Positions 7,926 through 25,421 of a stretch of DNA of 40,524 nucleotides are shown here, in pieces. Every line of letters starts with the position of its first letter. The first letter of the stretch is position 1. The position numbers were made by a program, and so were the translations under genes. The notes under the pieces were generated by a model. It was not told where the DNA came from, made no database searches, and was given only the letters and a program-made list of their open reading frames with translations. Source of the stretch: Promethearchaeota archaeon (GTDB lineage Archaea; Asgardarchaeota; Lokiarchaeia; Sigyniarchaeales; SOKP01); NCBI GenBank assembly GCA_016839745.1, contig JAEOTS010000089.1, positions 1 through 40,524 of the forward strand. Direction: 5' to 3'.

Positions 7926-7937
7926 CACTTGTGTTTT

Positions 7938-9354: not shown

Positions 9355-9390
9355 TCTCTTTTTTTTTCTTTTAGGGCGTTCTTTTTGTTT
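9355..9390 (+). terminator. Oligo-T tract, putative terminator
   Basis: TCTCTTTTTTTTTCTTTT immediately after the stop codon. Confidence 0.5.
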
Positions 9391-9505
9391 AATAAAAATA
9401 TACTTTTTAAGCCAATATTTATTGTATTTATATTAGTGTTTTATAATTATATACTTGTAAAAGCATCGATATCAGCAAAGCATAAATCACTTGTAGGCAT
9501 CTAAA

Positions 9506-11866
9506 ATGAACGAAAGGATCAAGAAATTACGGAAACAGAGTCGCTCAGCAATTCCGTATCTTTCATTAGAACGTGCTTTATTAATAACAGAATTTTACAA
9601 GAAAGGAGTAGCTCAATTATATTCACCTCCAGTTACTAGAGCTAAAGCTTTTGAATATATACTGAAAAACAAAGAGATTTGTTTTAATGATGGCGAGTTA
9701 ATAGTTGGAGAACGCGGTCCGGAGCCAAAAGCGACTCCTTCTTACCCAGAAGTATGTTGTCATACATTAAAGGATTTAGAAATACTGGATTCTCGGGAAA
9801 AAATCTCTTTCCAGGTCCAAGAAGGTGTACGGCAAAACTCGAGAGACATCATCATTCCATTTTGGAAAGGTAAAACAATTAGAGAAAAAATCTTTTCTCA
9901 AGTCGATCAAGAGTGGCAAGATGCGTATAACGCGGGAATCTTCACTGAGTTCATGGAACAACGGGCTCCTGGACACACCGTAGCGGGTAAGAGTATCTGG
10001 ACAAATGGATTTTTAGATTTTAAAAAACAAATTCAGAATTCTATTGATAATTTGGATTTTTTCAAAGATCCCGACGCTTTCGCTAAGAGAGAACAGTTAA
10101 AAGCAATGGATATTGCTGCTGACAGTATAATAAGCTATGCAGAAGGACATTCTGAAAAAGCTCTAGAATTAGCTGAAGGAGAATCTAATCCAGAAAGAAA
10201 AAGAGAATTAGAAGAAATAGCCGAAATTTGCTCTCGTGTTCCAGCTAACGCTCCAAGGACGTTCTGGGAAGCTTTACAGCATTATTGGTTTATTCATCTA
10301 GGTGTTATTATAGAATATAATACTTGGGATGCTTTTAATCCTGGACGTCTTGATCAACATTTATACCCTTTTTATAAGAAGGATGTTTCTGATGGTATAT
10401 TAACAAAAGAGAGAGCCATCGAGCTACTTCAAGCCTTTTGGATTAAATTTAATAACCAACCAGCTCCTCCAAAGGTGGGAGTAACGGCAGAAGAAAGCGG
10501 AACTTACACAGATTTTTGCAATATTAATCTTGGAGGGTTAAAGGAGGACGGATCTGATGGAGTAAACGAACTATCTTTCATACTTTTAGATGTAATCGAA
10601 GAAATGAGAATACTACAACCTAGTAGTAATATTCAAATTAGCGAAAAAACCCCAGATAATTTTATTAAAAAAGCCCTTAAGATAATTAAAACAGGTTTCG
10701 GTCAACCCTCAGTTTTCAATGCAGATGCCATTGTCCAAGAACTAACGCGCCAAGGGAAATCCTTAATAGACGCTCGAAACGGTGGTGCTAGTGGGTGCGT
10801 CGAAACAGGAGCTTTTGGAAAAGAAGCATATATATTAACGGGGTACTTTAATCTTGTGAAGATATTTGAAGTTACTTTACATAACGGAGTCGAACCTTTA
10901 ACGGACAAACAAGTTGGATTAAAGACGGGAGAGCCTACTTCTTTCAAAACTTTTGACGAGTTATTAGAAGCGTATACAAAACAAATCAAGCATTTTGTTG
11001 ACATTAAAATAAAAGGTAATCTAATAATAGAGCGGATTTGGGCCCAAAATCCTTCCCCCTTTTTATCAATTATTATTGATGATTGTATCGAAAATGGAAA
11101 AGATTACAACGATGGTGGAGCAAAGTACAATACATCCTATATTCAGATAGTTGGTATGGGGAGTATAACTGATTGCTTAGCTTCTTTAAAATATAATGTT
11201 TATGACAACAAAATTTATACTATGGAAAAAATGCTCGAAGTGCTTAATAATAACTTCGAAGGATTTGAGGAAATAAGACAAAAACTTGTATCTAGAACAC
11301 CTAAATATGGGAACGATAAAGATTACGCAGACTCTATTACCCAACAAATTTTCGAGATCGTATATAGTGCTATTGATGGGCGTCCGAACACCAGAGGAGG
11401 AGTGCACAGAATAAACCTACTTCCTACAACTGTCCACATTTATTTTGGAAAAGTTACTGGTGCCACACCAGACGGTAGAAAAGCATATACGCCTTTATCT
11501 GAAGGAATCTCGCCTGTACAAGGAATGGATATTAATGGCCCAACCTCTGTTATAAAATCCGCTGCTAAAATTGACCATCTTCGAACTGGGGGAACATTAT
11601 TAAATCAAAAATACTCACCCAAATTCTTTTCGAGCGAATCAGGGATTAATAATGTAGCTCATTTGATACGCTCCTATTTTAAAATGGGAGGTCATCACAT
11701 TCAATTTAACGTAGTTTCGGTAAATACTTTGCGTGCTGCTCAAAATGATCCGGCACAATATCATAATCTAATAGTACGCGTTGCGGGATATAGCGATTAT
11801 TATATCAATCTAGGAAAAGATTTACAAGACGAAATAATTAAAAGAACTGAACATATCTCAGTTTAA
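9506..11866 (+). CDS. hypD: Glycyl radical enzyme, trans-4-hydroxy-L-proline dehydratase type
   Basis: 786 aa; RVAGY glycyl loop, SGCVE thiyl loop, and HypD-characteristic segments MEQRAPGHT, WDAF-PGRLDQHL, FNNQPAPPKVG...ES-TYTDF, KEAYILTGY, LPTT-HIYFG. Confidence 0.85.
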   Translation: MNERIKKLRKQSRSAIPYLSLERALLITEFYKKGVAQLYSPPVTRAKAFEYILKNKEICFNDGELIVGERGPEPKATPSYPEVCCHTLKDLEILDSREKISFQVQEGVRQNSRDIIIPFWKGKTIREKIFSQVDQEWQDAYNAGIFTEFMEQRAPGHTVAGKSIWTNGFLDFKKQIQNSIDNLDFFKDPDAFAKREQLKAMDIAADSIISYAEGHSEKALELAEGESNPERKRELEEIAEICSRVPANAPRTFWEALQHYWFIHLGVIIEYNTWDAFNPGRLDQHLYPFYKKDVSDGILTKERAIELLQAFWIKFNNQPAPPKVGVTAEESGTYTDFCNINLGGLKEDGSDGVNELSFILLDVIEEMRILQPSSNIQISEKTPDNFIKKALKIIKTGFGQPSVFNADAIVQELTRQGKSLIDARNGGASGCVETGAFGKEAYILTGYFNLVKIFEVTLHNGVEPLTDKQVGLKTGEPTSFKTFDELLEAYTKQIKHFVDIKIKGNLIIERIWAQNPSPFLSIIIDDCIENGKDYNDGGAKYNTSYIQIVGMGSITDCLASLKYNVYDNKIYTMEKMLEVLNNNFEGFEEIRQKLVSRTPKYGNDKDYADSITQQIFEIVYSAIDGRPNTRGGVHRINLLPTTVHIYFGKVTGATPDGRKAYTPLSEGISPVQGMDINGPTSVIKSAAKIDHLRTGGTLLNQKYSPKFFSSESGINNVAHLIRSYFKMGGHHIQFNVVSVNTLRAAQNDPAQYHNLIVRVAGYSDYYINLGKDLQDEIIKRTEHISV

Positions 11867-11908: not shown

Positions 11909-14590
11909 TTATTGTTTTTCTCTAAGCATATTTCTTAATACTGTGTGTAATATCCCAAGATTTTGATAATATTCGAGATCAACCTTATTATCGAGTCGAA
12001 CAATAACATCAAATAAAATTTCTTCCCCATTTTTCTTTATTGCGCTCACAGTTAATTCAGATAAAGGTGTCATATTCTTAACTCCAGAAATACTCACAGT
12101 TTCGGTTCCATCCAAACCTAAATTTGCTGCATTTTCCCCATCTTTGAACTGTAGTGGTAAAACTCCCATGCCTACTAAATTACTTCTATGAATTCTTTCA
12201 AAGGATTCAGCGATTACTGCTTTCACTCCTTGGAGTTGAGTTCCCTTAGCAGCCCAGTCTCGTGAGCTCCCCATACCATAGTCTGTTTTTGCGATAACGA
12301 TTAAAGGTGTTTCAGAAGCGATGTATTTCATAGCCGCATTATAAATTGGCATAACTTCCCCAGTTGGATGATATTTTGTCCAACCTCCTTCTCGATCGAC
12401 GAGAAGATTCCTAATTCTTATGTTTCCAAACGTGCCTCTTGCCATTACCTGATCATTCCCTCTCCTTGACCCAAAAGAATTAAAATCTTTAGGTTCAATC
12501 CCTTTCGAGATTAAATATTTTCCTGCGGGCATATCTTCTGGAATCACTCCTGCAGGAGAAATGTGATCAGTAGTGACGCTTTCTCCCAACAGAGCAAGAA
12601 TTCTAGCGTTCTTTATATCTGTTAGGGGAGGTTTATCAAGAGGAAAATCCATGAAGAAAGGAGGCTCTCTAATATAAGTAGAATCATCTTCCCATTGATA
12701 TACGTTATCTTTTGATGGGTTTAAATCATTCCATAATTCCCATCCTTTAAATATTTCTCCGTATTCCTTATTGAATTGCTCAGGATTGACATTATTCATG
12801 TAAATTTGTTGACACTCATCATGAGAGGGCCAGATATCCTTAAGATATACGGGATTTCCATTTGAATCCAACCCCAAAGGTTCAGTATCCAAATCAATTG
12901 CGACAGTGCCAGCTATTGCGTAGGCGACTACTAAGGGGGGTGATGCTAAATAATTCGTTTTAGTATATGGACTTATTCTACCTTCGAAATTGCGGTTACC
13001 ACTAAGAACGGAAGCAACAACAAGGTCATTATTATCGATTTCTTTTATAATATCACCAGAAAGCGGTCCACTATTTCCAATGCAAGTAGTACAACCATAC
13101 CCAACAATGTTAAATCCTAATTTTTCCAAATAAGGTAATAATCCCGCACTTTCTAGATAATCTCTGACTACTCGGGATCCAGGAGCAAAGCTGGTTTTTA
13201 CATGTTTCTTAACTTTCAAACCTTTTTCAACAGCAGCTTTCGCAATCATTCCTGCTCCAACCATAACCGAAGGGTTGGAAGTATTTGTGCAAGATGTGAT
13301 TGCCGCGATAACTACTGAACCATGTTTTAACTTGTCTGAATCAATATCGGCTAATTTATCTAAATCATCTGGTTTAGCAAAAGAAGTTTTTAGTTGGTGG
13401 GAAAATTCCTTCTTCATGTCTTTAAGAGATATTCTATCTTGTGGTCTCTTTGGTCCCGCTAAACTAGGTTCTATCTCAGTTAAGTTAATTTCTACTACTT
13501 CACTATAATTTGGAGTTGGCAAGTTTGCATCGTAAAAAAGACCTACTTTTTTTAAGTAACTTTTTACAAATTCAGCGTGTTCTTTATTACGACCACTTAA
13601 TAGGAGATAATCTATTGTATTGTCATCAACAGGAAAGAATCCCATCGTAGCTCCGTATTCGGGAGACATATTTGCGATTGTCGCTCGATCGGGCAATTTC
13701 AATTGATTAAGGCTTGGTCCATAAAATTCGACAAATTTACCGACTACACCGTGTGCTCTAAGAATTTGGGTTATCGTAAGAACAATATCAGTGGCAGTAA
13801 TTCCATCTTGAGGTTCACCAATTAATTTAACTCCAACTACCTCAGGGATATTCATATAATACGGTTGACCTAATATAACTGCTTCGGCCTCAATACCACC
13901 AACACCCCAGCCTAGAACACCTAATCCATTAATCATGGTAGTATGTGAGTCGGTACCTACTAGAGTATCGGGAAACGCATACTTTTCTCCTTTATGTTCC
14001 CTTAACTGGACAACAGAGGCGAGATATTCTAAATTTACCTGATGACATATTCCTCTACTAGTAGGAACTACGCGAAAGTTGTTAAAAACAGTTTGAGCCC
14101 ACTTTAAAAATACATAGCGCTCGTAATTTCGCTCAAATTCTTTCTCTTCGTTCAATTTGAGTGCTTCATTTGTCCCATAATAGTCAACTTGGATTGAATG
14201 GTCAATAACTAAATCTACTGGGATGATAGGGTTAATCTTATTAGGATCTCCTGCTGCTCTTTTTACAGCTGATCTTAAAGCCGCTAGATCAACAACAGCG
14301 GGCACGCCTGTGAAGTCTTGAAGTAATACTCTTGATGGTTTATAAGGAATTTCTTTTTTATCCTTTTGATTTGGTACCCATTTTGAGAGTGCAAGGAAAT
14401 TCTCTTCAGTTACAACTTCTCCATCTAAGTTTCGGATTACATTCTCTAATAACACCCTTATAGAATAGGGTAATATCTCTATGTCTCCAAAACCAAGGTC
14501 CTTTAATTTTTTGAGGTTATAAATCGATGCAGTATCGTCTTTAATGTTAATTTTTTCCCTTAAATTGTTCTGGATTTCTGTTATACTCAT
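11909..14590 (-). CDS. acnA: Aconitate hydratase A (AcnA / IRP1 family)
   Basis: 893 aa; RVLLQDFTGVPAVVDLAA, DLVIDHS, GTDSHTTM, AAITSCTNTSNP, GYGCTTCIGNSG, SGNRNFEGR, GSSRDWAAKG. Confidence 0.97.
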   Translation of the reverse strand: MSITEIQNNLREKINIKDDTASIYNLKKLKDLGFGDIEILPYSIRVLLENVIRNLDGEVVTEENFLALSKWVPNQKDKKEIPYKPSRVLLQDFTGVPAVVDLAALRSAVKRAAGDPNKINPIIPVDLVIDHSIQVDYYGTNEALKLNEEKEFERNYERYVFLKWAQTVFNNFRVVPTSRGICHQVNLEYLASVVQLREHKGEKYAFPDTLVGTDSHTTMINGLGVLGWGVGGIEAEAVILGQPYYMNIPEVVGVKLIGEPQDGITATDIVLTITQILRAHGVVGKFVEFYGPSLNQLKLPDRATIANMSPEYGATMGFFPVDDNTIDYLLLSGRNKEHAEFVKSYLKKVGLFYDANLPTPNYSEVVEINLTEIEPSLAGPKRPQDRISLKDMKKEFSHQLKTSFAKPDDLDKLADIDSDKLKHGSVVIAAITSCTNTSNPSVMVGAGMIAKAAVEKGLKVKKHVKTSFAPGSRVVRDYLESAGLLPYLEKLGFNIVGYGCTTCIGNSGPLSGDIIKEIDNNDLVVASVLSGNRNFEGRISPYTKTNYLASPPLVVAYAIAGTVAIDLDTEPLGLDSNGNPVYLKDIWPSHDECQQIYMNNVNPEQFNKEYGEIFKGWELWNDLNPSKDNVYQWEDDSTYIREPPFFMDFPLDKPPLTDIKNARILALLGESVTTDHISPAGVIPEDMPAGKYLISKGIEPKDFNSFGSRRGNDQVMARGTFGNIRIRNLLVDREGGWTKYHPTGEVMPIYNAAMKYIASETPLIVIAKTDYGMGSSRDWAAKGTQLQGVKAVIAESFERIHRSNLVGMGVLPLQFKDGENAANLGLDGTETVSISGVKNMTPLSELTVSAIKKNGEEILFDVIVRLDNKVDLEYYQNLGILHTVLRNMLREKQ

Positions 14591-14599
14591 ATACTCAAT

Positions 14600-15847
14600 C
14601 TATCTCTCTTCAATTTTTACATATTTTTTATCAAGCTCACCAACATACCGAAGTCTCGGTCGGATCAATTTGTTATCTTTGAGTTGTTCGAGGGCATGAG
14701 CTACCCATCCTGCTGATCTGCTCGCTGCGAATAGAGGCGTAAATAGTGGTGTCGGTATCCCTAATACATGAAGTAAACCGGCAGAATACAGATCCACATT
14801 TGGGTAGATATTTTTTGTTTTGATAATATAATCAGTGAGCATCTCCGTCATCTCAAAAATATTATCTATATCTCCACGGTGATCTTCATGTGCTTGGTCA
14901 GGGATTTTATCGATATCTCCTCTCTCTTCTCTTTCCCAAAATTCTTTAGACAGTTCTCGAAGGATAAGCGCACGTGGATCCCATGTCTTGTAAACGCGGT
15001 GACCGAATCCCATTACTTTTTCTTTGTTCTCTAGCTTTTCTTTAACCCAGGGTAGAACATTTTCTTTTCTTTTAATTTCTTCTAGCATTATTCTAACGAC
15101 CCTTTCGTTAGCACCACCATGCAATGGTCCTCTAAGAGTACCGATAGCGCTTGTAATTCCACTGTAAATATCAGATAAAGTAGAAACAGTGACCCGACAG
15201 GAGAAGGTTGACGAATTTATAGAATGGTCAGCATGACAAATAAGAACTTTGTCAAACACCCTTTCGAAATCCTTGCTTGGTTTCCTACCAGTCATCATAT
15301 AGTAGTAATTCCCCGCATGAGATAGATTTTTTGAGGGCTCTACTAATGGTAGATTTTCTTGGATTCTATGCGCAAATGCGAGGATCGTAGGAATTTTAGC
15401 TATTATTCGAATTCCTTTTCTAATGTTTGCTTCTTCTGTATAGACATAATCGTCTGCATCGTAAAGAGACAGAGCAGAAACTGAAGTCCTTAGCAATTCT
15501 ATTCGAGTTGTATTTCGAGGATAACTCTTTAAAATTGTCAAGATGCTGTCAGGAATATTTCGCTCTACTATTAACAGATTCTTAAATACTTCGAGCTCGG
15601 ATACGGTGGGTAAATTTCCATAGATTAAGAGATAAGCGACTTCTTCAAAGCTTGAATTATTCACTAGATCTTTTAGTGGATATCCTCTGAAGTATAACTT
15701 ACCATTTTCACCATCAATCAAAGTAATTAAACTTTCATCAACATAAATTCCAACTAATCCCTTATAGGTTTTTGATCTATCAAGATTGCATAGTAGAGGT
15801 CCTTCTGGTATGTAATCCTCTTTTATTTTACGAGTATCTTTTTTCAT
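14600..15847 (-). CDS. Citrate synthase (or 2-methylcitrate synthase family), paralog 1
   Basis: 415 aa; HADHSINSSTF, GPLHGGANE, MGFGHRVYK, YPNVDLYS, SRSAGW; catalytic His/His/Asp intact. Confidence 0.92.
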   Translation of the reverse strand: MKKDTRKIKEDYIPEGPLLCNLDRSKTYKGLVGIYVDESLITLIDGENGKLYFRGYPLKDLVNNSSFEEVAYLLIYGNLPTVSELEVFKNLLIVERNIPDSILTILKSYPRNTTRIELLRTSVSALSLYDADDYVYTEEANIRKGIRIIAKIPTILAFAHRIQENLPLVEPSKNLSHAGNYYYMMTGRKPSKDFERVFDKVLICHADHSINSSTFSCRVTVSTLSDIYSGITSAIGTLRGPLHGGANERVVRIMLEEIKRKENVLPWVKEKLENKEKVMGFGHRVYKTWDPRALILRELSKEFWEREERGDIDKIPDQAHEDHRGDIDNIFEMTEMLTDYIIKTKNIYPNVDLYSAGLLHVLGIPTPLFTPLFAASRSAGWVAHALEQLKDNKLIRPRLRYVGELDKKYVKIEER

Positions 15848-15867
15848 ATTTGAGTTACCATATTTTC

Positions 15868-15896
15868 TAATTAAAACCTTAAACTACCTTAAAGTA
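15868..15896 (-). promoter_or_regulatory. Conserved upstream element with TATA-like TACTTTAAG, citrate synthase paralog 1
   Basis: 24/29 identical to 17277-17305 and at the same distance (21 nt) from the ATG. Confidence 0.6.
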
Positions 15897-16008
15897 AAAA
15901 AGAAAGATATATATTTCTTAAGCTTTTAAATAATTAATTTTGAGAAGAAATAGGAGAAAGCACGCAAAAAAGGATATTAGAATTACACGATTAATATTGA
16001 AAAATGAA

Positions 16009-17256
16009 CTACCTTTCTTCAATTTTTACATAGTTTTTATCTAACGTACCTATATATCGAAGTCTTGGTCTGATTAATTTGTTATCTTTGAGTTGTTCGA
16101 GGGCATGGGCGACCCACCCTGCTGATCTACTCGCAGCAAATAGCGGTGTAAAAGAGGCTGTTGGGATTCCTAATGTATGTAATAATCCTGCAGAATATAG
16201 ATCGACATTTGGATAAAGATTCTTCGTTTTCATTACGTATTCGTTGAGAATCTCGGTCATTTCTATAATATAATCAACTTCATCATGAATATTATGTCCA
16301 TTATTAGGAATTTTGTCTATTAATTCACCGTTTTGAGCCTTTTTACAAAAATTCATGGATATCTCTCTTAAAATTTTAGCCCGGGGATCCCAAGTTTTGT
16401 ATACTCGATGGCCAAATCCCATAATTTTTTCTTTTCTTTCAAATTTTTTCTCTGCCCAAGGAATAACAAGCTCCTTTTTCTTTATCTCATTGGCCATATA
16501 TTTCATGACTGCTTCGTTTGCTCCACCGTGTAGAGGTCCTCTGAGTGTACCTATTGCACTAGTAATACCACTATAAATATCTGAAAGGGTTGAGACCGTT
16601 ACACGACAAGAGAAAGTTGAAGAATTAATGGAGTGATCTGCGTGACAGATTAAGACATCGTCAAATGCCTCTTCAAAATCCCTGTGTGGTTTATTACCTG
16701 TCATCATATAATAATAATTTGCTGAATGAGAGAGATCTTCTGAAGGTTCTACTAAAGGCAAATTGGTTTGAATCCTATGGGCAAATGCTAATAAAGTTGG
16801 CATTTTTGCCACAATTCTAAGTCCTTTCCTAATGTTGGCCGGTTCGGAATAATCATAATCGTCTGGATCATACAAAGAAAGAGCGGAAATTGCGGTTCTT
16901 AGGAGTTCGATCCTTGTAGTGTTCCTTGGAAAACTTTTTAGAATACTAACGATATTATCTGGAATATTTCTTTCCTTTATTAACAAATCTTTAAACTCTT
17001 TAAACTCAGAATTACTTGGAAGTTTTCCATGTATAAGCAAATAAGCAACTTCCTCGAATGTGGAATTGTCACACAACTCTCTGAGAGCATAGCCTCGATA
17101 ATACAACTTTCCATTTATTCCATCGATATATGTTATCAAACTTTCATCTACATAGAGTCCAACTAAACCTTTATGTATCTTTGGGTGATCTAGCTTAGAG
17201 AGTTCTGGTTCAGCATCCTCATAATCTTCACTAATTTTTCTTTTATCTGCTTTCAT
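16009..17256 (-). CDS. Citrate synthase (or 2-methylcitrate synthase family), paralog 2
   Basis: 415 aa; same catalytic motifs as paralog 1 with long identical stretches, consistent with tandem duplication. Confidence 0.92.
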   Translation of the reverse strand: MKADKRKISEDYEDAEPELSKLDHPKIHKGLVGLYVDESLITYIDGINGKLYYRGYALRELCDNSTFEEVAYLLIHGKLPSNSEFKEFKDLLIKERNIPDNIVSILKSFPRNTTRIELLRTAISALSLYDPDDYDYSEPANIRKGLRIVAKMPTLLAFAHRIQTNLPLVEPSEDLSHSANYYYMMTGNKPHRDFEEAFDDVLICHADHSINSSTFSCRVTVSTLSDIYSGITSAIGTLRGPLHGGANEAVMKYMANEIKKKELVIPWAEKKFERKEKIMGFGHRVYKTWDPRAKILREISMNFCKKAQNGELIDKIPNNGHNIHDEVDYIIEMTEILNEYVMKTKNLYPNVDLYSAGLLHTLGIPTASFTPLFAASRSAGWVAHALEQLKDNKLIRPRLRYIGTLDKNYVKIEER

Positions 17257-17276
17257 GATTTAGATACATTATTTGA

Positions 17277-17305
17277 TAATTAAATCCTATTACTAGCTTA
17301 AAGTA
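17277..17305 (-). promoter_or_regulatory. Conserved upstream element with TATA-like TACTTTAAG, citrate synthase paralog 2
   Basis: 24/29 identical to 15868-15896 with the same spacing to the start codon. Confidence 0.6.
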
Positions 17306-17424
17306 GAGTGGTAAAATAAATATTTCCACAAAAAATACGAGAAACTATACAAAAAAAGAGAATTTTCTGTTTTAATTAAAAATATTTCATATTATAAGAT
17401 ATTTTACTATTCAACCAGATTTTT

Positions 17425-18480
17425 TTAAAGTAATATTTCAGAATCAACATCATTCAGATTTTTACAATTAGTCATTATCATCGCTTTCGCTAGAGTTTTC
17501 TGCAAGTATTCCATCTGAATCCGAACGCCGTCTAATCCTGCCCCAACAGCTGCCCTGACGATATCTCGCCCAATTAACACGGATTCTGCACCAATAGCGA
17601 GCATTTTTAGAACATCGTACCCTGTTCGAATACCTCCATCGACAATAATTCTAATTTTACCCTTCAATTTAGCTACTATTTCGGGAAGTACTTCTGCAGT
17701 TCCAGGAGTATGATCTAAAACCCTTCCCCCGTGATTCGATACAACTATGGCTGCTGCTCCCGCATCTTTTGCCAGAATAGAATCTTCTATACTCATGACT
17801 CCTTTTACAATGAATGGCAATTTTGTCGATGACACTAATTCCCTAAGATCACTACTATTTTTCTTATAAACCGGTTTTTTATGTGTATACATAGCGTAAG
17901 ATCCACATCCATCAATATCTATTCCAACCGCCACGCATCCAGATTCTTCTGCTTTTTTAAAGAATTCTATAACGACATCTTGTTCTCTTGGTTTCACGAT
18001 TTTAACTCCAAATCCGCTAGCTTCAGCAATTGCGTTAATTCCATATGAATTTTCAAGAGAATAAGTATAAGTATCGCCTCGCCAGCCCAATGTTCCAGCT
18101 GCCATACAACCGAGAACTACTGAACGGCAAAACTCTTTTTCTGAAATGACTTTTTCTCCTCCAAAACTATTTACTCCCGAAACACTCGCTCCCATTATCG
18201 GCATTGAAAGTTCTTTACCGAAGAAGTCATACTTAGTGTCTGCTTTAAAATGATCTCCGATGAGTTTCATTTTTAATTTCAACTTCTTCAATGCTAGAAT
18301 ATTGTTGTTAAAAGAAGCCCCGCTTCCAACTCCACCGAATCCAAGTGGTCTTCCGTAACTTTGGCCTTGACAAATTCGCATTGAATCTCCATCACATATT
18401 TTATATACTCCACATACTCCTAAGAGTTTCTTTTTGGCTTCCTCTCGAACTTGAGTTAAACTCATTTCATCTAATGTCAT
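17425..18480 (-). CDS. FMN-dependent alpha-hydroxy-acid dehydrogenase/oxidase with N-terminal Cys motif
   Basis: 351 aa; LPFIVKGVM, VSNHGGRVLD, DGGIRTGYDVLK, IGR; N-terminal C-x5-C-x7-C; 20 bp downstream of fumC with GGTGA Shine-Dalgarno. Confidence 0.9.
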   Translation of the reverse strand: MTLDEMSLTQVREEAKKKLLGVCGVYKICDGDSMRICQGQSYGRPLGFGGVGSGASFNNNILALKKLKLKMKLIGDHFKADTKYDFFGKELSMPIMGASVSGVNSFGGEKVISEKEFCRSVVLGCMAAGTLGWRGDTYTYSLENSYGINAIAEASGFGVKIVKPREQDVVIEFFKKAEESGCVAVGIDIDGCGSYAMYTHKKPVYKKNSSDLRELVSSTKLPFIVKGVMSIEDSILAKDAGAAAIVVSNHGGRVLDHTPGTAEVLPEIVAKLKGKIRIIVDGGIRTGYDVLKMLAIGAESVLIGRDIVRAAVGAGLDGVRIQMEYLQKTLAKAMIMTNCKNLNDVDSEILL

Positions 18481-18500
18481 AATTTCACCTTTGTTATCTC

Positions 18501-19880
18501 TTAAACCATCTTTTTAGGGTCTAGTAGTTCGTCCAAATGATCGATTTTTAAACCCATTTCTTTAATAACTACTTTACACGATTTACCTTCTTTATACGCC
18601 CGTTGGGCGATCTCAGAGCATTTATCGTAGCCTAATATTGGTGTTAGGTTAGTAACAAGCATTAACATTTGCTCTAAGTTTGAATCTATTTTTTCAGTAT
18701 TCGCTTTTAATTCTACTAAACAGTGGTCTATAAACGAATTAATTCCACCAATTAAAATTTCAATTGACTCAAGAACATTTACTATCATTACCGGTTTGCT
18801 CATATTTAAATCCAAAATGCTTCCATACATTTCACCACTTGTAACGACTGAATCGTTGCCAATTACTTGAAGACACACTTGAATTAACGCTTCAGATTGA
18901 GTAGGATTGATTTTTCCAGGCATAATAGACGATCCGGGTTCGTTTTGCGGTAGAATTAACTCCGAAAGACCAGCTCTAGGACCACTACCCATCCAACGAA
19001 TATCGTTTGCCATTTTTAATAGAGATAAAGCTAAAAGTTTTAAATTACTGCTAGCGAAAGCTATTGTATTGTGGGATGATATTCCCTCTGCCTTTACTGG
19101 GTTAAGTTTAAAGGATAACGAAGTTATTTTCGAAAGATGGGATACAGTGAGTTTGTCAAAATCTTTAGGAGCGTTTAATCCAGTTCCCAAAGCAGTACCA
19201 CCTATAGGAATGTAGAACAACTCATCCAATACCTTATCTAATCGCTCAATATTAGTCTCAATTTGTTGTTTATAGACTTTAAATTCTAACGATAACGGTA
19301 CTGGAACAGCATCTTGCAAGTGTGTTCTTCCTACCTTGACAATATCTTTGAATTCTTCAATTTTAGAAGCAAGTACTTCCTTTAGTCGATTTAATACTGA
19401 TATCAATTTATGGATCATGTGTATGCTAGAAACATGCATCGTACTTGGGATCACATCGTTAGAAGACTGGCTTTTATTTACGTGGTCATTTGGATGGACA
19501 GGATGTTTTTTACCTATAGGAAATCCTAAGATTTGAGCAGCTCTGTTAGCTAATACTTCGTTCATGTTCATGTTTGTTTGGGTTCCGCTTCCAGTTTGAT
19601 AGATATCGATAGGAAATTGATCCAAGTGTTTACTTTCGTTTAAAATCTCGTTAACGGCTTGTAGGATCGCATCTCCATTTTCCTTAGTAATTAATCCCAA
19701 TTCTAAATTCGCCAATAAACACGCTTTTTTAACTTGTGCTAAGGAAGTAATAAATATTGTTGGGAACTTTTTTCCGCTTATTTGGAAGTTTTGCAATGCT
19801 CTTTGAGTATTAATGCCCCAATAAGCATCGCTAGGGACTTCTAATTCGCCCAAAACATCTTTTTCTACGCGATAAGTCAT
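18501..19880 (-). CDS. fumC: Fumarate hydratase class II
   Basis: 459 aa; QTGSGTQTNMN, HPNDHVNKSQSSND, GRTHLQDA, GSSIMPGKINP. Confidence 0.93.
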   Translation of the reverse strand: MTYRVEKDVLGELEVPSDAYWGINTQRALQNFQISGKKFPTIFITSLAQVKKACLLANLELGLITKENGDAILQAVNEILNESKHLDQFPIDIYQTGSGTQTNMNMNEVLANRAAQILGFPIGKKHPVHPNDHVNKSQSSNDVIPSTMHVSSIHMIHKLISVLNRLKEVLASKIEEFKDIVKVGRTHLQDAVPVPLSLEFKVYKQQIETNIERLDKVLDELFYIPIGGTALGTGLNAPKDFDKLTVSHLSKITSLSFKLNPVKAEGISSHNTIAFASSNLKLLALSLLKMANDIRWMGSGPRAGLSELILPQNEPGSSIMPGKINPTQSEALIQVCLQVIGNDSVVTSGEMYGSILDLNMSKPVMIVNVLESIEILIGGINSFIDHCLVELKANTEKIDSNLEQMLMLVTNLTPILGYDKCSEIAQRAYKEGKSCKVVIKEMGLKIDHLDELLDPKKMV

Positions 19881-19998: not shown

Positions 19999-20874
19999 CT
20001 ATGAAGTGAGTGTTTTAGTTATATCTTCAAAATAATTAAAAATTGTAGAATAGTGTCCTTCGTTTGGATAAAATTTACATATACATTTTGGAATTTTTTC
20101 ACACATCCCGCGACCCATGGCAACAGGAACATTCACATCTGCTTCCCCATGCCAGATATACACTCTAAGATTTGGAGATATATCTTCAAGGTTAAAACCC
20201 CAAGATTTCGCATAGATTTTTCCTTCGTGATAAGCTCCTTTACTATCTTGGCGAAATGATTCTGCACTTGCCTTAATAAATAATGAAAATGTGGTTGGAT
20301 CATTCAAAATTACTCTATCAGCCTCTGGCATTTTTTTCAAAGCTTTCTTCATATTCTTTTCTGCTTTTTCAAAATCTAGCGTACCGCGAGCTTGAAACCA
20401 CATCATTAATTTAAACAACAATGGAAATATTCGAATAACAGCAAATAATCTAATGCTTTTTTCTATTTCAAGATCTCTTGGAGCTAAACCACTAATTATA
20501 CCGCAAGAATGTAAACGCTCAGGAATTTTATATGCACACGCCACAGCATAAGGGCCACCTCCAGATATGCCCTCAACTGTAAATTTATCAATGCCAAGAG
20601 CGTCAGCCAGCTCAACTACATCATCTGGCCAGTCTAAAAGCGTGCGATTTTTCTTAAAATCTGAAAGCCCCATTCCCGGCCTATCAATTCCAATAAGTCT
20701 AACATTCAGCTTATCTATATCCTTTTCAGATAATAAAGTTGCCTCTAAACGAGAACTTGGAAATCCGTGAAAGTGAAACAAAGGTTTTGCATCTTTATTC
20801 CCTAAATCTATATAACCAAGCTTCCTACCATCTTTTAACTTTATTGTCTGACTAAGTTTATCAGTATTGGTCAT
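19999..20874 (-). CDS. Alpha/beta hydrolase
   Basis: 291 aa; HG oxyanion motif (FHGFPSSR), DRPG-G-S, GISGG nucleophile elbow, WHGEAD, EGH. Confidence 0.9.
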   Translation of the reverse strand: MTNTDKLSQTIKLKDGRKLGYIDLGNKDAKPLFHFHGFPSSRLEATLLSEKDIDKLNVRLIGIDRPGMGLSDFKKNRTLLDWPDDVVELADALGIDKFTVEGISGGGPYAVACAYKIPERLHSCGIISGLAPRDLEIEKSIRLFAVIRIFPLLFKLMMWFQARGTLDFEKAEKNMKKALKKMPEADRVILNDPTTFSLFIKASAESFRQDSKGAYHEGKIYAKSWGFNLEDISPNLRVYIWHGEADVNVPVAMGRGMCEKIPKCICKFYPNEGHYSTIFNYFEDITKTLTS

Positions 20875-21027: not shown

Positions 21028-22815
21028 GTGATAAATTTGGCAAAATATAGATGTTCTGTGTGTAATTATATTTACAATGAAGAAACTGAAGGAAAAGGAT
21101 TTGATGACCTACCAGATTCTTGGACTTGTCCTGTATGTGGTGCTCCTAAATCTGCTTTTGTTACTGAAGGCGTAAGTAAAGACGATGAACGCATCGAGAC
21201 TAATGTTGCAGAAAAAATAATTGAGCAATTAGTAGCAATTGGAGTTAAACATGTATATGGAATACCGGGAGATTCTAACCTACCTCTTCTTAATGCTATA
21301 AGAAAAAACAATAATATCGATTTTATTTTAACTCGACACGAAGAAACAGCGGCATTCATGGCTTCTGCCCATGGTAAAATTACGGGTAAATTAGGTGTGT
21401 GTATGTCTATTGCTGGTCCGGGGGCAACAAATCTAATTACGGGATTGATGGACGCTGCTACTGATAGAAGTCCTGTACTAGCGCTAGTAGGTCAAATACC
21501 TGAAGTATATCTCGGAAGCGAGGCGTTTCAAGAAATATCCCAAATCGCGTTATTTCGTCCCTTCGCTGAATATGCGGAGACCGTAGCGAGAGCAAATCAA
21601 GCTATTAAGTTAACTATGATGGCGGTCAAATATGCGCTCAAGAAACCAGGGTTATCTGTATTGAGCTGTCCTACAGATGTGTTAGCAGATAAATTGGATG
21701 ATCCTATAATTGAACCAGACAAGAGGATTTTTAGTAGCGAATCGGTTTCAGCTTATCAAGATATTCAAAAAGCTGCGGATTTAATTAATAGGTGTAGTAG
21801 ACCTGTAATTTTCGGAGGATGGGGCTCCCGGTTTTCTGGAGACTTACTTATGGAGTTATCTAGAAAACTTAAAGCTCCAATTGCGACTACTTCTCGTGCT
21901 AAAGGTGTTGTTTATGAAACATATCAATATTGCTTAGGAGTATTAGGTTCTATTGGAACTAAATATGCTGCCAAGGCTATCAGAGACTGTGATTTAATAC
22001 TAATTATTGGTTCTGGTTTTAGACAAGCTAATCTAGTTTCGTCTGGAGTCAAATTTGTGCAGATTGACAAGGATCCTACAAGAATCGGAAAGACTTTTGA
22101 TGTTCATGTTGGATTAGTCGGAGACGGGCATCGAGTTTTAGAAAAATTGCTGCCTTTAATAGAAGAAAAGGAAGGAAATGAAGAATTCTTATCCCAGGTT
22201 TTCGACATGAAACTTCGACATATGGAAGAATTAGAGAAAGAATCGAAAGATTATTCTGTTCCTATAAACCCAGGATTCGTAATACAAGCCTTAAGAAGAA
22301 ACTTAGATACAAATGCGATTATAACCGTAGATGTAGGAGATCATACTTATTGGTTTTACAAGAAATTCCTTTGTGAAGGGCATAAACCTTACTTAAATGC
22401 GAATATGGCGTCTATGGGTTTCGCCCTGCCCGCAGCCTTAGCAGCAAAATTAGACTTTCCCGACAGACAAGTTGTTTGTGTTGCGGGAGATGGAGGTTTT
22501 GGCATGTTAATGGCTGATTTCACTACTGCTGTAAGAGAAAAATTAAATATTGTTGCTATAGTGTTTAACGATGGCGTATTAAAGAACATTAAAAAGGAAT
22601 TAGTACGCGATGGATACCCAATATTTGGCGTTGAGTTTCCCAACCCAAATTTTGCCCAATTTGCTGAATCTTGTGGGGGGTTTGGAGTAAGGGTAGATGC
22701 CCCAGATAAGCTAGATGAAGCGTTGCAAATGGCTCTAAACTCTGGAAAACCTTCTATTGTAGAGATAATTATTGATCCTGATAAAACAGCCGCTTCGACA
22801 AAAAAAGTAGATTAA
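21028..22815 (+). CDS. Rubredoxin-fused ThDP-dependent enzyme (pyruvate oxidase / acetolactate synthase-like family)
   Basis: N-terminal YRCSVCNYIY...FDDLPDSWTCPVCGAPKSAF rubredoxin, then YGIPGDS, RHEETAAFMA, GPGATN and GDGGF...FND. Start GTG 21028 or TTG 21037. Confidence 0.9.
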   Translation: MINLAKYRCSVCNYIYNEETEGKGFDDLPDSWTCPVCGAPKSAFVTEGVSKDDERIETNVAEKIIEQLVAIGVKHVYGIPGDSNLPLLNAIRKNNNIDFILTRHEETAAFMASAHGKITGKLGVCMSIAGPGATNLITGLMDAATDRSPVLALVGQIPEVYLGSEAFQEISQIALFRPFAEYAETVARANQAIKLTMMAVKYALKKPGLSVLSCPTDVLADKLDDPIIEPDKRIFSSESVSAYQDIQKAADLINRCSRPVIFGGWGSRFSGDLLMELSRKLKAPIATTSRAKGVVYETYQYCLGVLGSIGTKYAAKAIRDCDLILIIGSGFRQANLVSSGVKFVQIDKDPTRIGKTFDVHVGLVGDGHRVLEKLLPLIEEKEGNEEFLSQVFDMKLRHMEELEKESKDYSVPINPGFVIQALRRNLDTNAIITVDVGDHTYWFYKKFLCEGHKPYLNANMASMGFALPAALAAKLDFPDRQVVCVAGDGGFGMLMADFTTAVREKLNIVAIVFNDGVLKNIKKELVRDGYPIFGVEFPNPNFAQFAESCGGFGVRVDAPDKLDEALQMALNSGKPSIVEIIIDPDKTAASTKKVD

Positions 22816-22851: not shown

Positions 22852-23607
22852 TTAGATCCAATTATCTCGAATGTCCTTGATTGCTGTACCAGGCATAACA
22901 CCTTTGGGACATATGCGATTACAAACGAAAAACTTCTCACAGGCGGGGACAGCGTCATTTTGTAAAACACGTGATAAGACTCTCTCCTGTTTTTCGTTGT
23001 TAACCCTAGAATCTCGGATAAATCTATCTGATTTTGCTAACTGCGCCGGACCAAGGTACTCAGGGTTTTTTGCGTTAACAGGACACATCCAGCATATTCC
23101 GCATAATATACAATAGACTAGCCTTTCTATTTTCTTCATTTCGTTAGGTGATTGCGTCGATTCTGGGGCAACATCGTTCCAATCTTTTGTAAAATAAGGT
23201 TCAACTTCGCGATAAAATTTCCAGAATGGTTCCATATCTACTACTAAATCCTTTACAACGGTCATATTTGGTAATGGCTCAATTAAAATCTCATTTTCTT
23301 GGTTCCAATCAGAAATATCTCCAAAAACTACTTCTGGAAGATTAATAGGTTTTTTAGCGTTTTTAACTTTAGAGACTTGAGTTCTGCAGGCCAGCATCGG
23401 AACCTTATCAATCGTCATTCCGCAGCTACCACAAATTGCCCCTCGACAAGCATAACGGAATGCGAAGGTAGAATCGTGATAATCTTGAATGTAAAAAAGA
23501 GCATCTAATATGCTCATACCTTTCGATAGGGGTATTTCATATCGTTCGTAAAGAACCTTTTCATTTCCTAAATTTCTATATATTAAAAATTTTTGCTTCT
23601 CACTCAC
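22852..23607 (-). CDS. sdhB: Succinate dehydrogenase / fumarate reductase iron-sulfur subunit
   Basis: 251 aa; CRGAICGSC...AC [2Fe-2S], CILCGICWMCP, CEKFFVCNRICP, IEPL..M.VVKDLVVDM. Confidence 0.92.
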   Translation of the reverse strand: MSEKQKFLIYRNLGNEKVLYERYEIPLSKGMSILDALFYIQDYHDSTFAFRYACRGAICGSCGMTIDKVPMLACRTQVSKVKNAKKPINLPEVVFGDISDWNQENEILIEPLPNMTVVKDLVVDMEPFWKFYREVEPYFTKDWNDVAPESTQSPNEMKKIERLVYCILCGICWMCPVNAKNPEYLGPAQLAKSDRFIRDSRVNNEKQERVLSRVLQNDAVPACEKFFVCNRICPKGVMPGTAIKDIRDNWI

Positions 23608-23624
23608 TTTTAATCATGCTCCAC

Positions 23625-25337
23625 TTAATACTTCCTCTCTTTTACTTCAAATATACCTAATATAACCGGTTTAGTTTTCAAATCTAAACCAGCTTTTACG
23701 CGATATATCAATGAATGGCTAAGAAAATTATCGTCATCACGAGAATCGTAGTCCCACCTATAGTGTCCACCTCTACTTTCTTTTCTCCATAGAGCTGCAT
23801 ACGCAGTAGCTTCTGCAATGTCTAACATAGATCTAAGTTCCAAATTTCGAAGTAATCCATAGTTGAATTTACGATCTTCTGTAGAAACTTTGACATTTAA
23901 AAAATCCTTTTGTAAGTTAACAAGAACACCGTAGGCTTTTGAAAGATCGTCATGAGTTCTAAAAACTCCTACATTCCTGTTCATGGTCTCACCCATTATA
24001 TTCTTGATTTCGATTGGTTTTTTACCTGTATTATTATCCCAACCTTTTAGAAGAGACTCTACTTTTTCTAACATATTATCTTCAGCACTTTTTAGATCGT
24101 TTAAAGATGGTTTGTTTGGTAAACCATTTTCTAATAGCTTTCTTCCAAGATAACGACCAAAAACGGCCGTCTCTAACAATGAATTTCCACCTAAACGATT
24201 AGCACCGTGTACAGAAAGACAAGAGCACTCACCTATTGTATATAAACCGGAGAGATCTGTTTCTCCATAAATACCTTTATATTTTGTCCCGATTCCACCC
24301 ATACTATAATGTTGACCTGGCTGGACAGGGATAGGTTCTTCTATTGGATCAACTCCCGCAAAGAAGATTGAAATATCTCTTATTCCCGGCAACCTTTCTT
24401 TAATACGGTCAGCACCCAAATGAGTTAGATCTAAATGAACGTACGCGTTTTCAAACCCTCTTCCCTCAAGAACTTCAATATCGTTAGCTCTTGCAACTAT
24501 ATCTCGTGGGGCAAGTTCCATCGCTTTTGGAGCGGTCTTTTCCATAAATCTTTCTCCCTCCGTGTTAAATAAATATCCACCTTCTCCACGTGCACCTTCA
24601 GTTATCAATATATTTGTGCCATATAGCGTAGTTGGGTGAAACTGTACGAATTCTACGTCTTGCATAGGGACTCCGGCACGAAATGCAGCTCCAACACCAT
24701 CCCCTGTATTAATCAAGGCATTTGTAGAATGTTTAAAAATTCTTCCAAAGCCCCCTGTTGCCAATATAACATAGGAAGCTCGAAAAATTACGAGTTCACC
24801 TTTCGCTACATCTAATGTAATCACTCCCGCGATTTTTTCGTTGATGACTATTAAATCTATTAAAAAGTATTCGTTAAAAAACTCTACTCCGTTTTTGACG
24901 CTTTGTTCGTTTAATGTGTGAAGTAACGCGTGTCCAGTGCGGTCTCCTGCGTAACAAGTTCGAGGGAAACCTGCTCCACCAAAAGGTCGTTGTGCAATAA
25001 GGCCCGAATCCAATCTAGAAAATGGTGCTCCCATGCTCTCAAATTCTACAACAATTTTGGGCGCTTCTTTACACATGAACATCACTACATCTTGGTCTGC
25101 GAGATAATCTGAGCCTTTTACTGTGTCAAAAGCGTGTCCTTCTGGCGTGTCTTTTTTGCTTTCTTCTAAATTACCCAATGCAGCATTAATTCCTCCTTGT
25201 GCCGCTCCTGAATGACTTCGGACAGGATAAACTTTGCTTATAACCGCGGTGTTCCATTTATCCGATAACTCTAGCCCCGCTCTAAGGCCACTTAAACCTG
25301 CACCTACTACAACCACATCAAATTCTTCGATTCTCAT
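23625..25337 (-). CDS. sdhA: Succinate dehydrogenase / fumarate reductase flavoprotein subunit
   Basis: 570 aa; [16 protein letters not shown] (covalent-FAD His), [44 protein letters not shown]. Confidence 0.95.
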
Positions 25338-25421
25338 TAAAATTTAATATTCTTATATAGATTAAAAAGATTTTACTAATAATCTATAAAAAATGTGTAA
25401 AGAAAACAAGCTTTATTTGGA

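What the first reader, a model, noticed from the sequence alone, without database searches (positions are those of the whole stretch)
14600..19880. Candidate non-canonical FMN-dependent malate dehydrogenase filling the MDH gap in a pathway-ordered TCA gene run
Seen: on the minus strand the order is sdhA-sdhB...fumC, FMN alpha-hydroxy-acid dehydrogenase, citrate synthase, citrate synthase, acnA. This follows the reaction order succinate, fumarate, malate, oxaloacetate, citrate, isocitrate. The dehydrogenase starts 20 bp after the fumC stop, and no NAD-MDH or Mqo is in the window. Established: this family (lactate oxidase, glycolate oxidase, mandelate dehydrogenase) oxidises L-2-hydroxy acids to 2-oxo acids, and L-malate is one. 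Inference: 17425..18480 oxidises malate to oxaloacetate, an activity I do not know to be described for this family.
Basis: partly seen in the sequence, partly recalled or inferred. Interest (0 to 1): 0.85.

Follow-up and report, generated by a model that had tools for sequence, protein, structure and literature searches.

The report
Candidate flavin malate dehydrogenase beside fumarase
Right behind its fumarase gene this Asgard archaeon has an unusual cysteine-bearing flavin enzyme of the lactate/glycolate-oxidase family; its relatives sit among citric-acid-cycle genes in many anaerobes, so it is probably an undescribed NAD-independent malate dehydrogenase, though nobody has assayed it.

Summary
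On the minus strand lie sdhA, sdhB, (rubredoxin-TPP enzyme on +, hydrolase), fumC, an FMN_dh gene 20 bp after fumC, two citrate synthases and acnA.

The FMN_dh (351 aa) belongs to a distinct '3-Cys' clade (type A) of PF01070. It keeps the catalytic Lys/His/Arg. It lacks the canonical substrate residues (GOX Y24, Y129, R164) and has an N-terminal Cys motif.

- **Context:** 56 of 72 type A loci have TCA genes within 5 kb, in Asgards, Methanobacteria, Methanosarcinales, Desulfobacteraceae, Myxococcales, Syntrophorhabdaceae, Spirochaetes and Fibrobacteres. The sister 4-Cys clade has 0 of 46.
- **Electron acceptor:** several lineages fuse rubredoxin to the N-terminus.
- **Desulfobacter relatives:** in 25 genomes, 18 of 21 carriers lack Ldh_1 MDH, Mqo is in none, and all 4 non-carriers have MDH.

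The 'MDH gap' is weaker here. No Ldh_1 MDH, Mqo or malic enzyme was found in the 89%-complete genome. However, a tandem Ldh_2 pair is present, as in nearly all relatives. About 20 related genomes have fumC with neither enzyme, and 17 Asgard genomes have both.

Best reading, at about 0.55, is an NAD-independent L-malate:acceptor (rubredoxin) oxidoreductase. It is unassayed. This scan flagged the same gene earlier in other Asgard genomes.

The parts
17425..18480 (-). Type A (3-Cys) FMN-dependent 2-hydroxy-acid dehydrogenase homolog, 351 aa (P0001); candidate NAD-independent malate dehydrogenase
   Evidence: PF01070 at 203.5 bits. AF2 model pLDDT 94.7. Foldseek TM 0.75-0.79 to mandelate, long-chain hydroxy-acid and glycolate oxidases. 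TCA-linked clade.
18370..18414 (-). N-terminal Cys motif C23-x5-C29-D-G-x5-C37 (codons 23-37); possible Fe-S or metal site
   Evidence: C23, C29 and C37 are invariant in both type A and type B. Type B has a fourth Cys (CxxCxxCx4C), which type A replaces with Tyr, Phe or His. Metal binding is inferred, not shown.
17722..17739 (-). Catalytic motif S248-N-H250-G-G-R253 (equivalent to GOX H254 and R257); K226 lies at 17803-17805
   Evidence: Invariant in 74- and 125-sequence alignments and aligned to GOX and LOX.
18501..19880 (-). Class II fumarate hydratase (fumC), 459 aa; its stop codon lies 20 bp upstream of the FMN_dh start
   Evidence: PF00206 and PF10415. TIGR00979 at 556.7 bits. Best PDB matches are fumarases.
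16009..17256 (-). Citrate synthase paralog 2 (415 aa)
   Evidence: PF00285 at 406.7 bits; TIGR01800 above its cut-off.
14600..15847 (-). Citrate synthase paralog 1 (415 aa, 74% identical to paralog 2)
   Evidence: PF00285 at 405.4 bits; identity.
11909..14590 (-). Aconitate hydratase AcnA (893 aa)
   Evidence: TIGR01341 at 1362.8 bits, above its cut-off.
21028..22815 (+). Rubredoxin fused to a pyruvate-oxidase-like TPP/FAD enzyme (595 aa); possible second rubredoxin-linked dehydrogenase of the module
   Evidence: PF00301 plus TPP_enzyme_N, _M and _C. Homologs lie near type A FMN_dh in L051, L081, L084 and L147.
22852..23607 (-). Succinate dehydrogenase/fumarate reductase Fe-S subunit
   Evidence: TIGR00384 at 203 bits, above its cut-off.
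23625..25337 (-). Succinate dehydrogenase/fumarate reductase flavoprotein subunit
   Evidence: TIGR01812 at 737 bits, above its cut-off.

Best explanation
The gene at 17425-18480 encodes a divergent FMN enzyme of the (S)-2-hydroxy-acid oxidase/dehydrogenase superfamily. It most likely oxidises L-malate, the product of the upstream fumarase, to oxaloacetate, the substrate of the downstream citrate synthases, without NAD.

Proposed mechanism (inferred):
1. His250 takes the hydroxyl proton, while Arg253 and Lys226 hold the carboxylate and the flavin.
2. Two electrons go to FMN.
3. They leave one at a time, possibly via a metal or Fe-S site formed by C23, C29 and C37, to rubredoxin. Rubredoxin is free in this genome and fused to the enzyme in other lineages.

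The malate/oxaloacetate couple (about -170 mV) is a poor reductant of NAD+. A higher-potential acceptor would make the step exergonic, as quinone does for Mqo.

What is shown: family, fold, retained catalytic triad, clade structure, gene linkage and phyletic patterns. What is inferred: substrate, acceptor and direction.
For: 1. **Family and fold.** PF01070. AF2 pLDDT 94.7. Foldseek TM 0.75-0.79 to hydroxy-acid oxidases. K226, H250, R253, D281 and R305 are conserved.
2. **Linkage in Asgards.** fumC-X adjacency in all but one of about 29 judgeable Loki-family loci. In other Asgard families the gene lies next to CS, acnA or sdhAB.
3. **Linkage elsewhere.**
   - sdhA-sdhB-fumC-X in five Methanobacteriota/Methanobacterium genomes.
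   - acnA-CS-X in a Methanosarcinales genome.
   - CS-X in Fibrobacteria and Chitinivibrionales.
   - CS within 1-4 kb in four Desulfobacteraceae.
   - rubredoxin-TPP-sdhA-sdhB-fumC-X in an unclassified bacterium.
   - Similar clusters in Myxococcales, Syntrophorhabdaceae and Treponemataceae.
   - Overall, TCA neighbours occur at 56 of 72 type A loci and 0 of 46 type B loci. The two types are sister clades.
4. **Phyletic pattern in Desulfobacter.** In 25 genomes of the Desulfobacter latus genus, 21 carry a rubredoxin-fused ortholog. Eighteen of these lack Ldh_1 MDH, none of the 25 has Mqo, and Ldh_2 is found in only 4 of the 25. All 4 non-carriers have MDH. Desulfobacter oxidises acetate through the TCA cycle (PMC2702500, PMC9768450).
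5. **Dependence on fumC.** In the own family every one of 27 carriers has fumC, and none of 20 fumC-less genomes carries the gene.
6. **Acceptor.** N-terminal rubredoxin fusions occur in three type A subclades. The own genome has a free 46-aa rubredoxin.
7. **Pocket.** Type A has Thr137 and Ser194 where type B has Gly and Leu. These positions align with GOX W108 and L161, which I recall as touching the substrate side chain, so a polar substrate would fit (weak, alignment-based).
Against: - No assay exists for any member.
- The canonical carboxylate- and hydroxyl-binding residues are missing: GOX Y24 aligns to P45, Y129 has no counterpart, and R164 is absent in a short loop 4. Even 2-hydroxy-acid chemistry is therefore not certain.
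- The own genome and 64 of 68 family genomes carry Ldh_2 dehydrogenases that could reduce oxaloacetate or oxidise malate.
- In the Asgard sample the gene co-occurs with canonical MDH in 17 genomes. About 20 family genomes have fumC with neither enzyme.
- One complete same-genus genome has CS and fumC with the gene cleanly missing between them.
- Some type A loci have no TCA neighbour. These are family f7, and family f24 where the gene lies beside cytochrome bd oxidase.
- The own genome is only 89% complete.
Confidence: 0.55

Rival explanations
1. It oxidises a different (S)-2-hydroxy acid, such as L-lactate, glycolate or L-2-hydroxyglutarate, and feeds the product (pyruvate, glyoxylate or 2-oxoglutarate) into the neighbouring cycle enzymes. 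With the adjacent rubredoxin-fused pyruvate-oxidase-like enzyme it could form a lactate to pyruvate to acetyl unit route.
For: All characterised relatives act on lactate, glycolate, mandelate or long-chain hydroxy acids. A rubredoxin-TPP enzyme lies near the gene here and in L051, L081, L084 and L147. Note e1-5574728 from this scan proposed a lactate-oxidase/pyruvate-oxidase pairing.
Against: The tightest and most widespread neighbours are fumC, CS, acnA and sdhAB, not the TPP enzyme, which is near only about 5 of 73 loci. No lactate or glycolate permease appeared beside the gene in any locus whose neighbours were annotated. The complementary pattern with NAD-MDH in Desulfobacter relatives fits malate specifically. 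NCBIfam LldD, lactate oxidase and MftD models score far below their cut-offs.
Confidence: 0.2
2. The Ldh_2 pair, or an unassembled MDH, is the real malate dehydrogenase. The FMN enzyme is an accessory, oxygen- or redox-stress-related dehydrogenase that drains electrons from an organic acid to rubredoxin, which in anaerobes usually serves O2/ROS detoxification. It would then be dispensable for the cycle.
For: Ldh_2 is near-universal in the family while the FMN gene is patchy: 27 of 69 family genomes (68 sampled plus G000), and cleanly absent in G071. It co-occurs with MDH in 17 Asgard genomes. In family f24 it lies beside cytochrome bd oxidase genes. FumC and AcnA are the oxidant-tolerant isoenzymes (general knowledge; lead from note e1-5574728).
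Against: This reading does not name a substrate and is compatible with malate being it. The Ldh_2 pair has no TCA neighbours. Most Desulfobacter-genus carriers have no Ldh_1, Ldh_2 or Mqo at all.
Confidence: 0.12
3. Having lost Y24, Y129 and R164, the clade no longer oxidises 2-hydroxy acids. It would perform another flavin reaction on a C4 acid, for example an ene-reduction or oxidation of fumarate/succinate-like substrates, or act on a non-acid substrate.
For: Three of six canonical active-site residues are missing, and T155 is replaced by an invariant Asp. The sister type B clade is fused to ATP-grasp ligases, which hints at non-canonical roles.
Against: The His-Arg pair of the SNHGGR motif and the flavin-N1 Lys, which are specific to hydroxy-acid oxidation in this superfamily, are invariant in more than 120 sequences. 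The fold is closest to hydroxy-acid oxidases.
Confidence: 0.08

Closest known systems
FMN-dependent (S)-2-hydroxy-acid oxidases/dehydrogenases (PF01070): glycolate oxidase/HAO1, L-lactate oxidase, 4-hydroxymandelate oxidase, LldD, flavocytochrome b2, mandelate dehydrogenase
   Same: TIM-barrel fold (TM 0.75-0.79). FMN-binding residues. The catalytic Lys, His and Arg (K226, H250, R253). Predicted oxidation of an (S)-2-hydroxy acid to a 2-oxo acid.
   Different: - Only 24-30% identity.
- GOX Y24, Y129 and R164 have no equivalents, and loop 4 is about 30 residues shorter.
- It has an N-terminal three-Cys motif.
- Relatives are fused to rubredoxin rather than cytochrome b5.
- The genomic context is the TCA cycle.
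- Malate is not a reported physiological substrate of any member, as far as I know and could find.
Malate:quinone oxidoreductase (Mqo, PF06039)
   Same: The proposed role: NAD-independent, flavin-based, exergonic malate oxidation. Like Mqo it can coexist with NAD-MDH or replace it.
   Different: Unrelated fold and cofactor (FAD, membrane-associated, quinone acceptor). No Mqo was found in this genome or in any of the 30 bacterial or methanogen genomes checked.
NAD(P)-dependent malate dehydrogenases: Ldh_1 family (PF00056/PF02866) and Ldh_2 family (PF02615; from memory, includes the M. jannaschii sulfolactate/malate dehydrogenase)
   Same: The same proposed reaction, malate to and from oxaloacetate.
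   Different: No sequence or fold relationship, and a nicotinamide cofactor. Ldh_1 was not found in the own genome. A tandem Ldh_2 pair is present on contig C109 but is not TCA-linked.
Type B (4-Cys, CxxCxxCx4C) FMN_dh clade of Clostridia, Nitrospirota and others
   Same: Sister clade at 41-48% identity. It shares the loss of Y24, Y129 and R164, the KP and DxD motifs, and three of the Cys.
   Different: It has a fourth Cys and lacks the 5-7 residue insert with Tyr42. It has no TCA neighbours (0 of 46). Some members are fused to ATP-grasp ligases. It is also uncharacterised.

Membership tests
FMN-dependent 2-hydroxy-acid oxidase/dehydrogenase (PF01070) | Pfam model hit above the gathering score | tested here: met
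   203.5 bits against a cut-off of 24.9, in two stretches. The N-terminal half is weak.
FMN-dependent 2-hydroxy-acid oxidase/dehydrogenase (PF01070) | (beta/alpha)8 barrel resembling solved members | tested here: met
   AF2 pLDDT 94.7 and pTM 0.93. Foldseek E about 1e-25 and TM 0.75-0.79 to 6a3t, 1tb3, 1gox and 2rdu.
FMN-dependent 2-hydroxy-acid oxidase/dehydrogenase (PF01070) | Catalytic His and Arg of the SNHGxRQ motif and the flavin-N1 Lys (GOX H254, R257, K230) | tested here: met
   H250, R253 and K226 are invariant.
FMN-dependent 2-hydroxy-acid oxidase/dehydrogenase (PF01070) | Substrate-binding Tyr24, Tyr129 and Arg164 (GOX numbering) | tested here: not met
   In the profile-to-1al7 alignment Y24 aligns to P45. 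Y129 falls in an insertion next to K163-P164. R164 is unaligned, in a shortened loop 4.
L-lactate dehydrogenase LldD, L-lactate oxidase, MftD (NCBIfam equivalogs) | Score above the curated cut-off | tested here: not met
   NF033901 scores 112 against a cut-off of 550. TIGR02708 scores 99 against 645. TIGR03966 scores 113 against 471.
Malate dehydrogenase (functional class, any fold) | Catalyses L-malate to oxaloacetate | not testable with these tools
   Only context and phyletic evidence is available. An enzyme assay is needed.
Iron-sulfur flavoprotein | Cys ligands that bind an Fe-S cluster | tested here: inconclusive
   Three invariant Cys: C23, C29, C37. The sister clade has a ferredoxin-like CxxCxxCx4C motif.

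The most novel reading that the evidence does not exclude
Type A FMN_dh would be a third, previously unrecognised class of malate dehydrogenase: an FMN, and possibly Fe-S, L-malate:rubredoxin oxidoreductase. Together with anchor-less SdhAB, FumC and a rubredoxin-fused pyruvate-oxidase-like enzyme, it would form a soluble, rubredoxin-linked oxidative C4 branch of the TCA cycle. This branch would be found in Asgard archaea, some methanogens and several anaerobic bacterial phyla. It would also be the gene behind the NAD(P)-independent malate dehydrogenase activity that I recall being reported for Desulfobacter postgatei in the 1980s.
Probability: 0.4. Interest if true: 0.85.

Novelty: new variant of a known kind. 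Interest (0 to 1): 0.72.

Why it matters
Malate oxidation is the thermodynamic bottleneck of the oxidative TCA cycle. Only two enzyme classes are known for it, NAD(P)-MDH and Mqo (PMC9062433).

A flavin enzyme that uses rubredoxin would be a third solution. It would change how TCA completeness is scored in metagenomes, where Asgard and Desulfobacter genomes are currently read as 'MDH missing'. It would also give a gene to a long-known biochemical activity in sulfate reducers. It would bear on reconstructions of central carbon and electron flow in the archaeal relatives of eukaryotes.

The claim is directly testable with one recombinant protein.

Tried and rejected
- **Single-sequence AlphaFold** failed (pLDDT 32). 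It was replaced by an alignment-based model.
- **Context of the closest non-Asgard cluster representatives** (P0121, P0128, P0133): the contigs were too short to be informative.
- **Literature.** I searched for an FMN-dependent malate dehydrogenase, for rubredoxin-fused hydroxy-acid dehydrogenases, for Asgard TCA gaps, and for the Desulfobacter NAD-independent malate dehydrogenase. The searchable library had no description of this enzyme and no text confirming my recollection of the Desulfobacter activity.
- **Mutual exclusion with MDH across 301 Asgard genomes:** not found. Seventeen genomes have both and most have neither.
- **The 232-aa ORF upstream of sdhA as a membrane anchor:** rejected. 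It has no hydrophobic segment and one Cys.
- **fumC as an aspartase:** considered less likely, since solved fumarases score higher.
- **Isocitrate as substrate:** rejected on stereochemistry, because the family is (S)-specific (from memory). The genome also has one Iso_dh-family gene (PF00180), which could be isocitrate dehydrogenase.
- **Expression:** no RNA holder was listed for the stretch, and read laying was not run.
- **Complex prediction with rubredoxin:** not run, because enzyme-carrier pairs are rarely informative there.
- **Docking of malate:** not possible, since model coordinates are not exposed.


Full report
**What is there.** The window is contig C56 of a 3.53-Mb, 192-contig, 89%-complete genome. 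Close homologs of its proteins are labelled Lokiarchaeota or Promethearchaeota.
- sdhA 23625-25337
- sdhB 22852-23607
- an alpha/beta hydrolase 19999-20874
- fumC 18501-19880
- an FMN_dh protein 17425-18480
- two citrate synthases, 74% identical (16009-17256 and 14600-15847)
- acnA 11909-14590

A rubredoxin-fused pyruvate-oxidase-like TPP enzyme lies on the plus strand (21028-22815). The FMN_dh start codon lies 20 bp after the fumC stop. fumC matches solved class II fumarases better than aspartases.

**The protein itself.** P0001 (351 aa) hits PF01070 at 203 bits. It is far below the cut-offs of every NCBIfam equivalog: LldD, lactate oxidase and MftD.
- With an alignment of 74 relatives, AlphaFold gives a confident barrel (pLDDT 94.7).
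- Its nearest solved folds are mandelate, long-chain hydroxy-acid and glycolate oxidases, with TM 0.75-0.79 and 24-30% identity.
- A profile-to-glycolate-oxidase alignment and family alignments show that the flavin-N1 Lys (K226), the catalytic His (H250), the Arg (R253) and the FMN-phosphate residues (D281, R305) are invariant.
- GOX Y24 aligns to P45. Y129 has no counterpart; an invariant K163-P164 sits there. R164 is lost in a loop 4 that is about 30 residues shorter.
- The N-terminus carries an invariant C23-x5-C29-D-G-x5-C37 motif.

So it is a member of the superfamily by fold and core chemistry, but it fails part of the canonical active-site definition.

**Two clades.** A scan of one genome per species returned 80 loci. 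Together with the Asgard loci, these gave 125 proteins, which split cleanly.
- **Type A** has the three-Cys motif with a short insert. It occurs in Asgards, Methanobacteria, Methanosarcinales, Desulfobacteraceae, Myxococcales, Syntrophorhabdaceae, Spirochaetes, Fibrobacteria and Chitinivibrionales.
- **Type B** has a ferredoxin-like CxxCxxCx4C motif. It occurs in Clostridia, Nitrospirota and others. Some members are fused to ATP-grasp ligases.

TCA genes (fumC, CS, acnA, sdhA/B) lie within about 5 kb at 56 of 72 type A loci and at 0 of 46 type B loci. The arrangements differ between lineages, which argues against simple inheritance of one operon:
- fumC-X(-CS-acnA) in the Loki family
- acnA-X-fumC-sdhB-sdhA in the sister family
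- acnA-CS-X in a Heimdall-labelled family and in Methanosarcinales
- sdhA-sdhB-fumC-X in five Methanobacteriota/Methanobacterium genomes
- CS-X in Fibrobacteria
- rubredoxin-TPP-sdhA-sdhB-fumC-X in an unclassified bacterium

The only cycle step without an assigned gene in these runs is malate to oxaloacetate.

**Electron acceptor.** Three type A subclades carry an N-terminal rubredoxin domain: the Asgard families f9 and f14 with Methanobacteria, the Desulfobacteraceae/Myxococcales group, and metagenomic representatives P0121 and P0122. The window's own protein is not fused. However, the genome has a free 46-aa rubredoxin, and the neighbouring TPP enzyme is itself rubredoxin-fused. By the Rosetta-stone logic, rubredoxin is the likely acceptor. 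Its potential (around 0 to -60 mV, from general knowledge) would make malate oxidation exergonic. This step is inferred.

**Is there really an MDH gap?** In the own genome no Ldh_1_N, Ldh_1_C, Mqo or malic enzyme was found. Two tandem Ldh_2 genes sit on the 4-kb contig C109. Their nearest NCBIfam model is L-sulfolactate dehydrogenase, below its cut-off. In a relative they have no TCA neighbours.

Across 301 sampled Asgard genomes:
- Type A is in 76, true Ldh_1 MDH in about 53, and both in 17.
- Ldh_2 is in 64 of 68 genomes of the own family.
- Within that family all 27 carriers have fumC, and none of 20 fumC-less genomes carries the gene.
- About 20 genomes have fumC with neither type A nor MDH.
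- One complete same-genus genome has CS, then 376 bp, then fumC, with the gene simply absent.

For Asgards the gene therefore depends on fumC but is dispensable. The gap argument alone is weak there.

**An independent test in Desulfobacter.** Two cultured Desulfobacteraceae with type A genes, Desulfocicer vacuolatum DSM 3385 and Desulfobacter latus, have no Ldh_1, Mqo or Ldh_2. In the 25 genomes of the D. latus genus:
- 21 carry a rubredoxin-fused ortholog (64-100% identical).
- 18 of those lack Ldh_1 MDH.
- Mqo is in 0 of 25.
- Ldh_2 is in only 4 of the 25, and one of those has stop codons.
- All 4 genomes without the ortholog have MDH.

Every genome thus has at least one of the two. Taken at face value, the chance that all four non-carriers fall among the seven MDH holders is 35 in 12,650. 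Relatedness inflates this figure.

Desulfobacter oxidises acetate through the TCA cycle (PMC2702500, PMC9768450) and so must oxidise malate. I recall that its malate dehydrogenase was reported as NAD(P)-independent (Brandis-Heep et al. 1983). I could not verify this in the searchable library, so it is a lead, not evidence.

**Verdict.** The best-supported reading is an NAD-independent L-malate:acceptor oxidoreductase, a new functional variant inside the FMN hydroxy-acid dehydrogenase superfamily (confidence about 0.55). The rivals are another 2-hydroxy acid feeding the cycle (0.2), an accessory rubredoxin-linked redox-stress enzyme with Ldh_2 as the true MDH (0.12), and altered chemistry (0.08).

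Papers name only Mdh and Mqo for this step (PMC9062433). I found no description of this enzyme.

Earlier agents of this scan reached a similar reading on orthologs in other Asgard genomes. New here are the rubredoxin fusions, the Desulfobacter phyletic test, the near-universal Ldh_2 caveat and the clean deletion in a sister genome.

Noticed in passing
window 21028-22815 (+): A rubredoxin domain is fused to a pyruvate-oxidase-like TPP/FAD enzyme (595 aa). Homologs lie near type A FMN_dh/TCA clusters in distant lineages (L051, L081, L084, L147). This suggests a second rubredoxin-linked 2-oxo-acid enzyme of unknown substrate.
   Followed up: partly
window 14600-15847 and 16009-17256 (-): Tandem citrate synthase paralogs, 74% identical. 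Some same-genus genomes keep only one (L144). Both pass TIGR01800 (citrate/2-methylcitrate synthase II), so one may have another specificity.
   Followed up: no
window 22852-26120 (-): sdhA and sdhB have no adjacent membrane-anchor gene. The conserved 232-aa ORF upstream (25422-26120) has no hydrophobic segment, one Cys and no Pfam hit. The complex may be soluble, with an unknown acceptor.
   Followed up: partly
window 5954-7888 (+) and 7929-8699 (+): A second, shorter aconitase-family protein (644 aa) is followed by a methyltransferase. The same pair is syntenic near the fumC-FMN_dh pair in L010, L012 and L014.
   Followed up: no
window 8770-11866 (+): An FMN reductase-like gene and a PFL-like glycyl-radical enzyme (786 aa) lie next to acnA. 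The pair is also conserved in L010.
   Followed up: no
G000 contig C109:661-2976 (L001/L002): A tandem pair of Ldh_2-family dehydrogenases. The family is found in 64 of 68 sampled family genomes, mostly as two copies, and the substrate is unknown. In L150 the pair is flanked by a CDF transporter and a glycyl-radical enzyme.
   Followed up: partly
L054:5380-7799 and L058:5384-7803: In one Asgard family (f24) the type A FMN_dh gene is divergently adjacent to cytochrome bd oxidase subunits I and II. This hints at a link to oxygen reduction.
   Followed up: no
L121, L126, L139-L142; P0131, P0143, P0152: Type B (4-Cys) FMN_dh domains are fused to an N-terminal ATP-grasp/L-amino-acid-ligase module (about 750 aa) in Spirochaetota and Nitrospinota. 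This architecture is uncharacterised.
   Followed up: no
L144:7621-7998 (G071): A complete same-genus genome has citrate synthase and fumC separated by 376 bp. The FMN_dh gene and one CS copy are missing, so this is a natural deletion variant.
   Followed up: partly
P0124: One type B-like homolog carries a twin-arginine-like signal (…SRREFL…), which suggests an exported, cofactor-loaded form.
   Followed up: no
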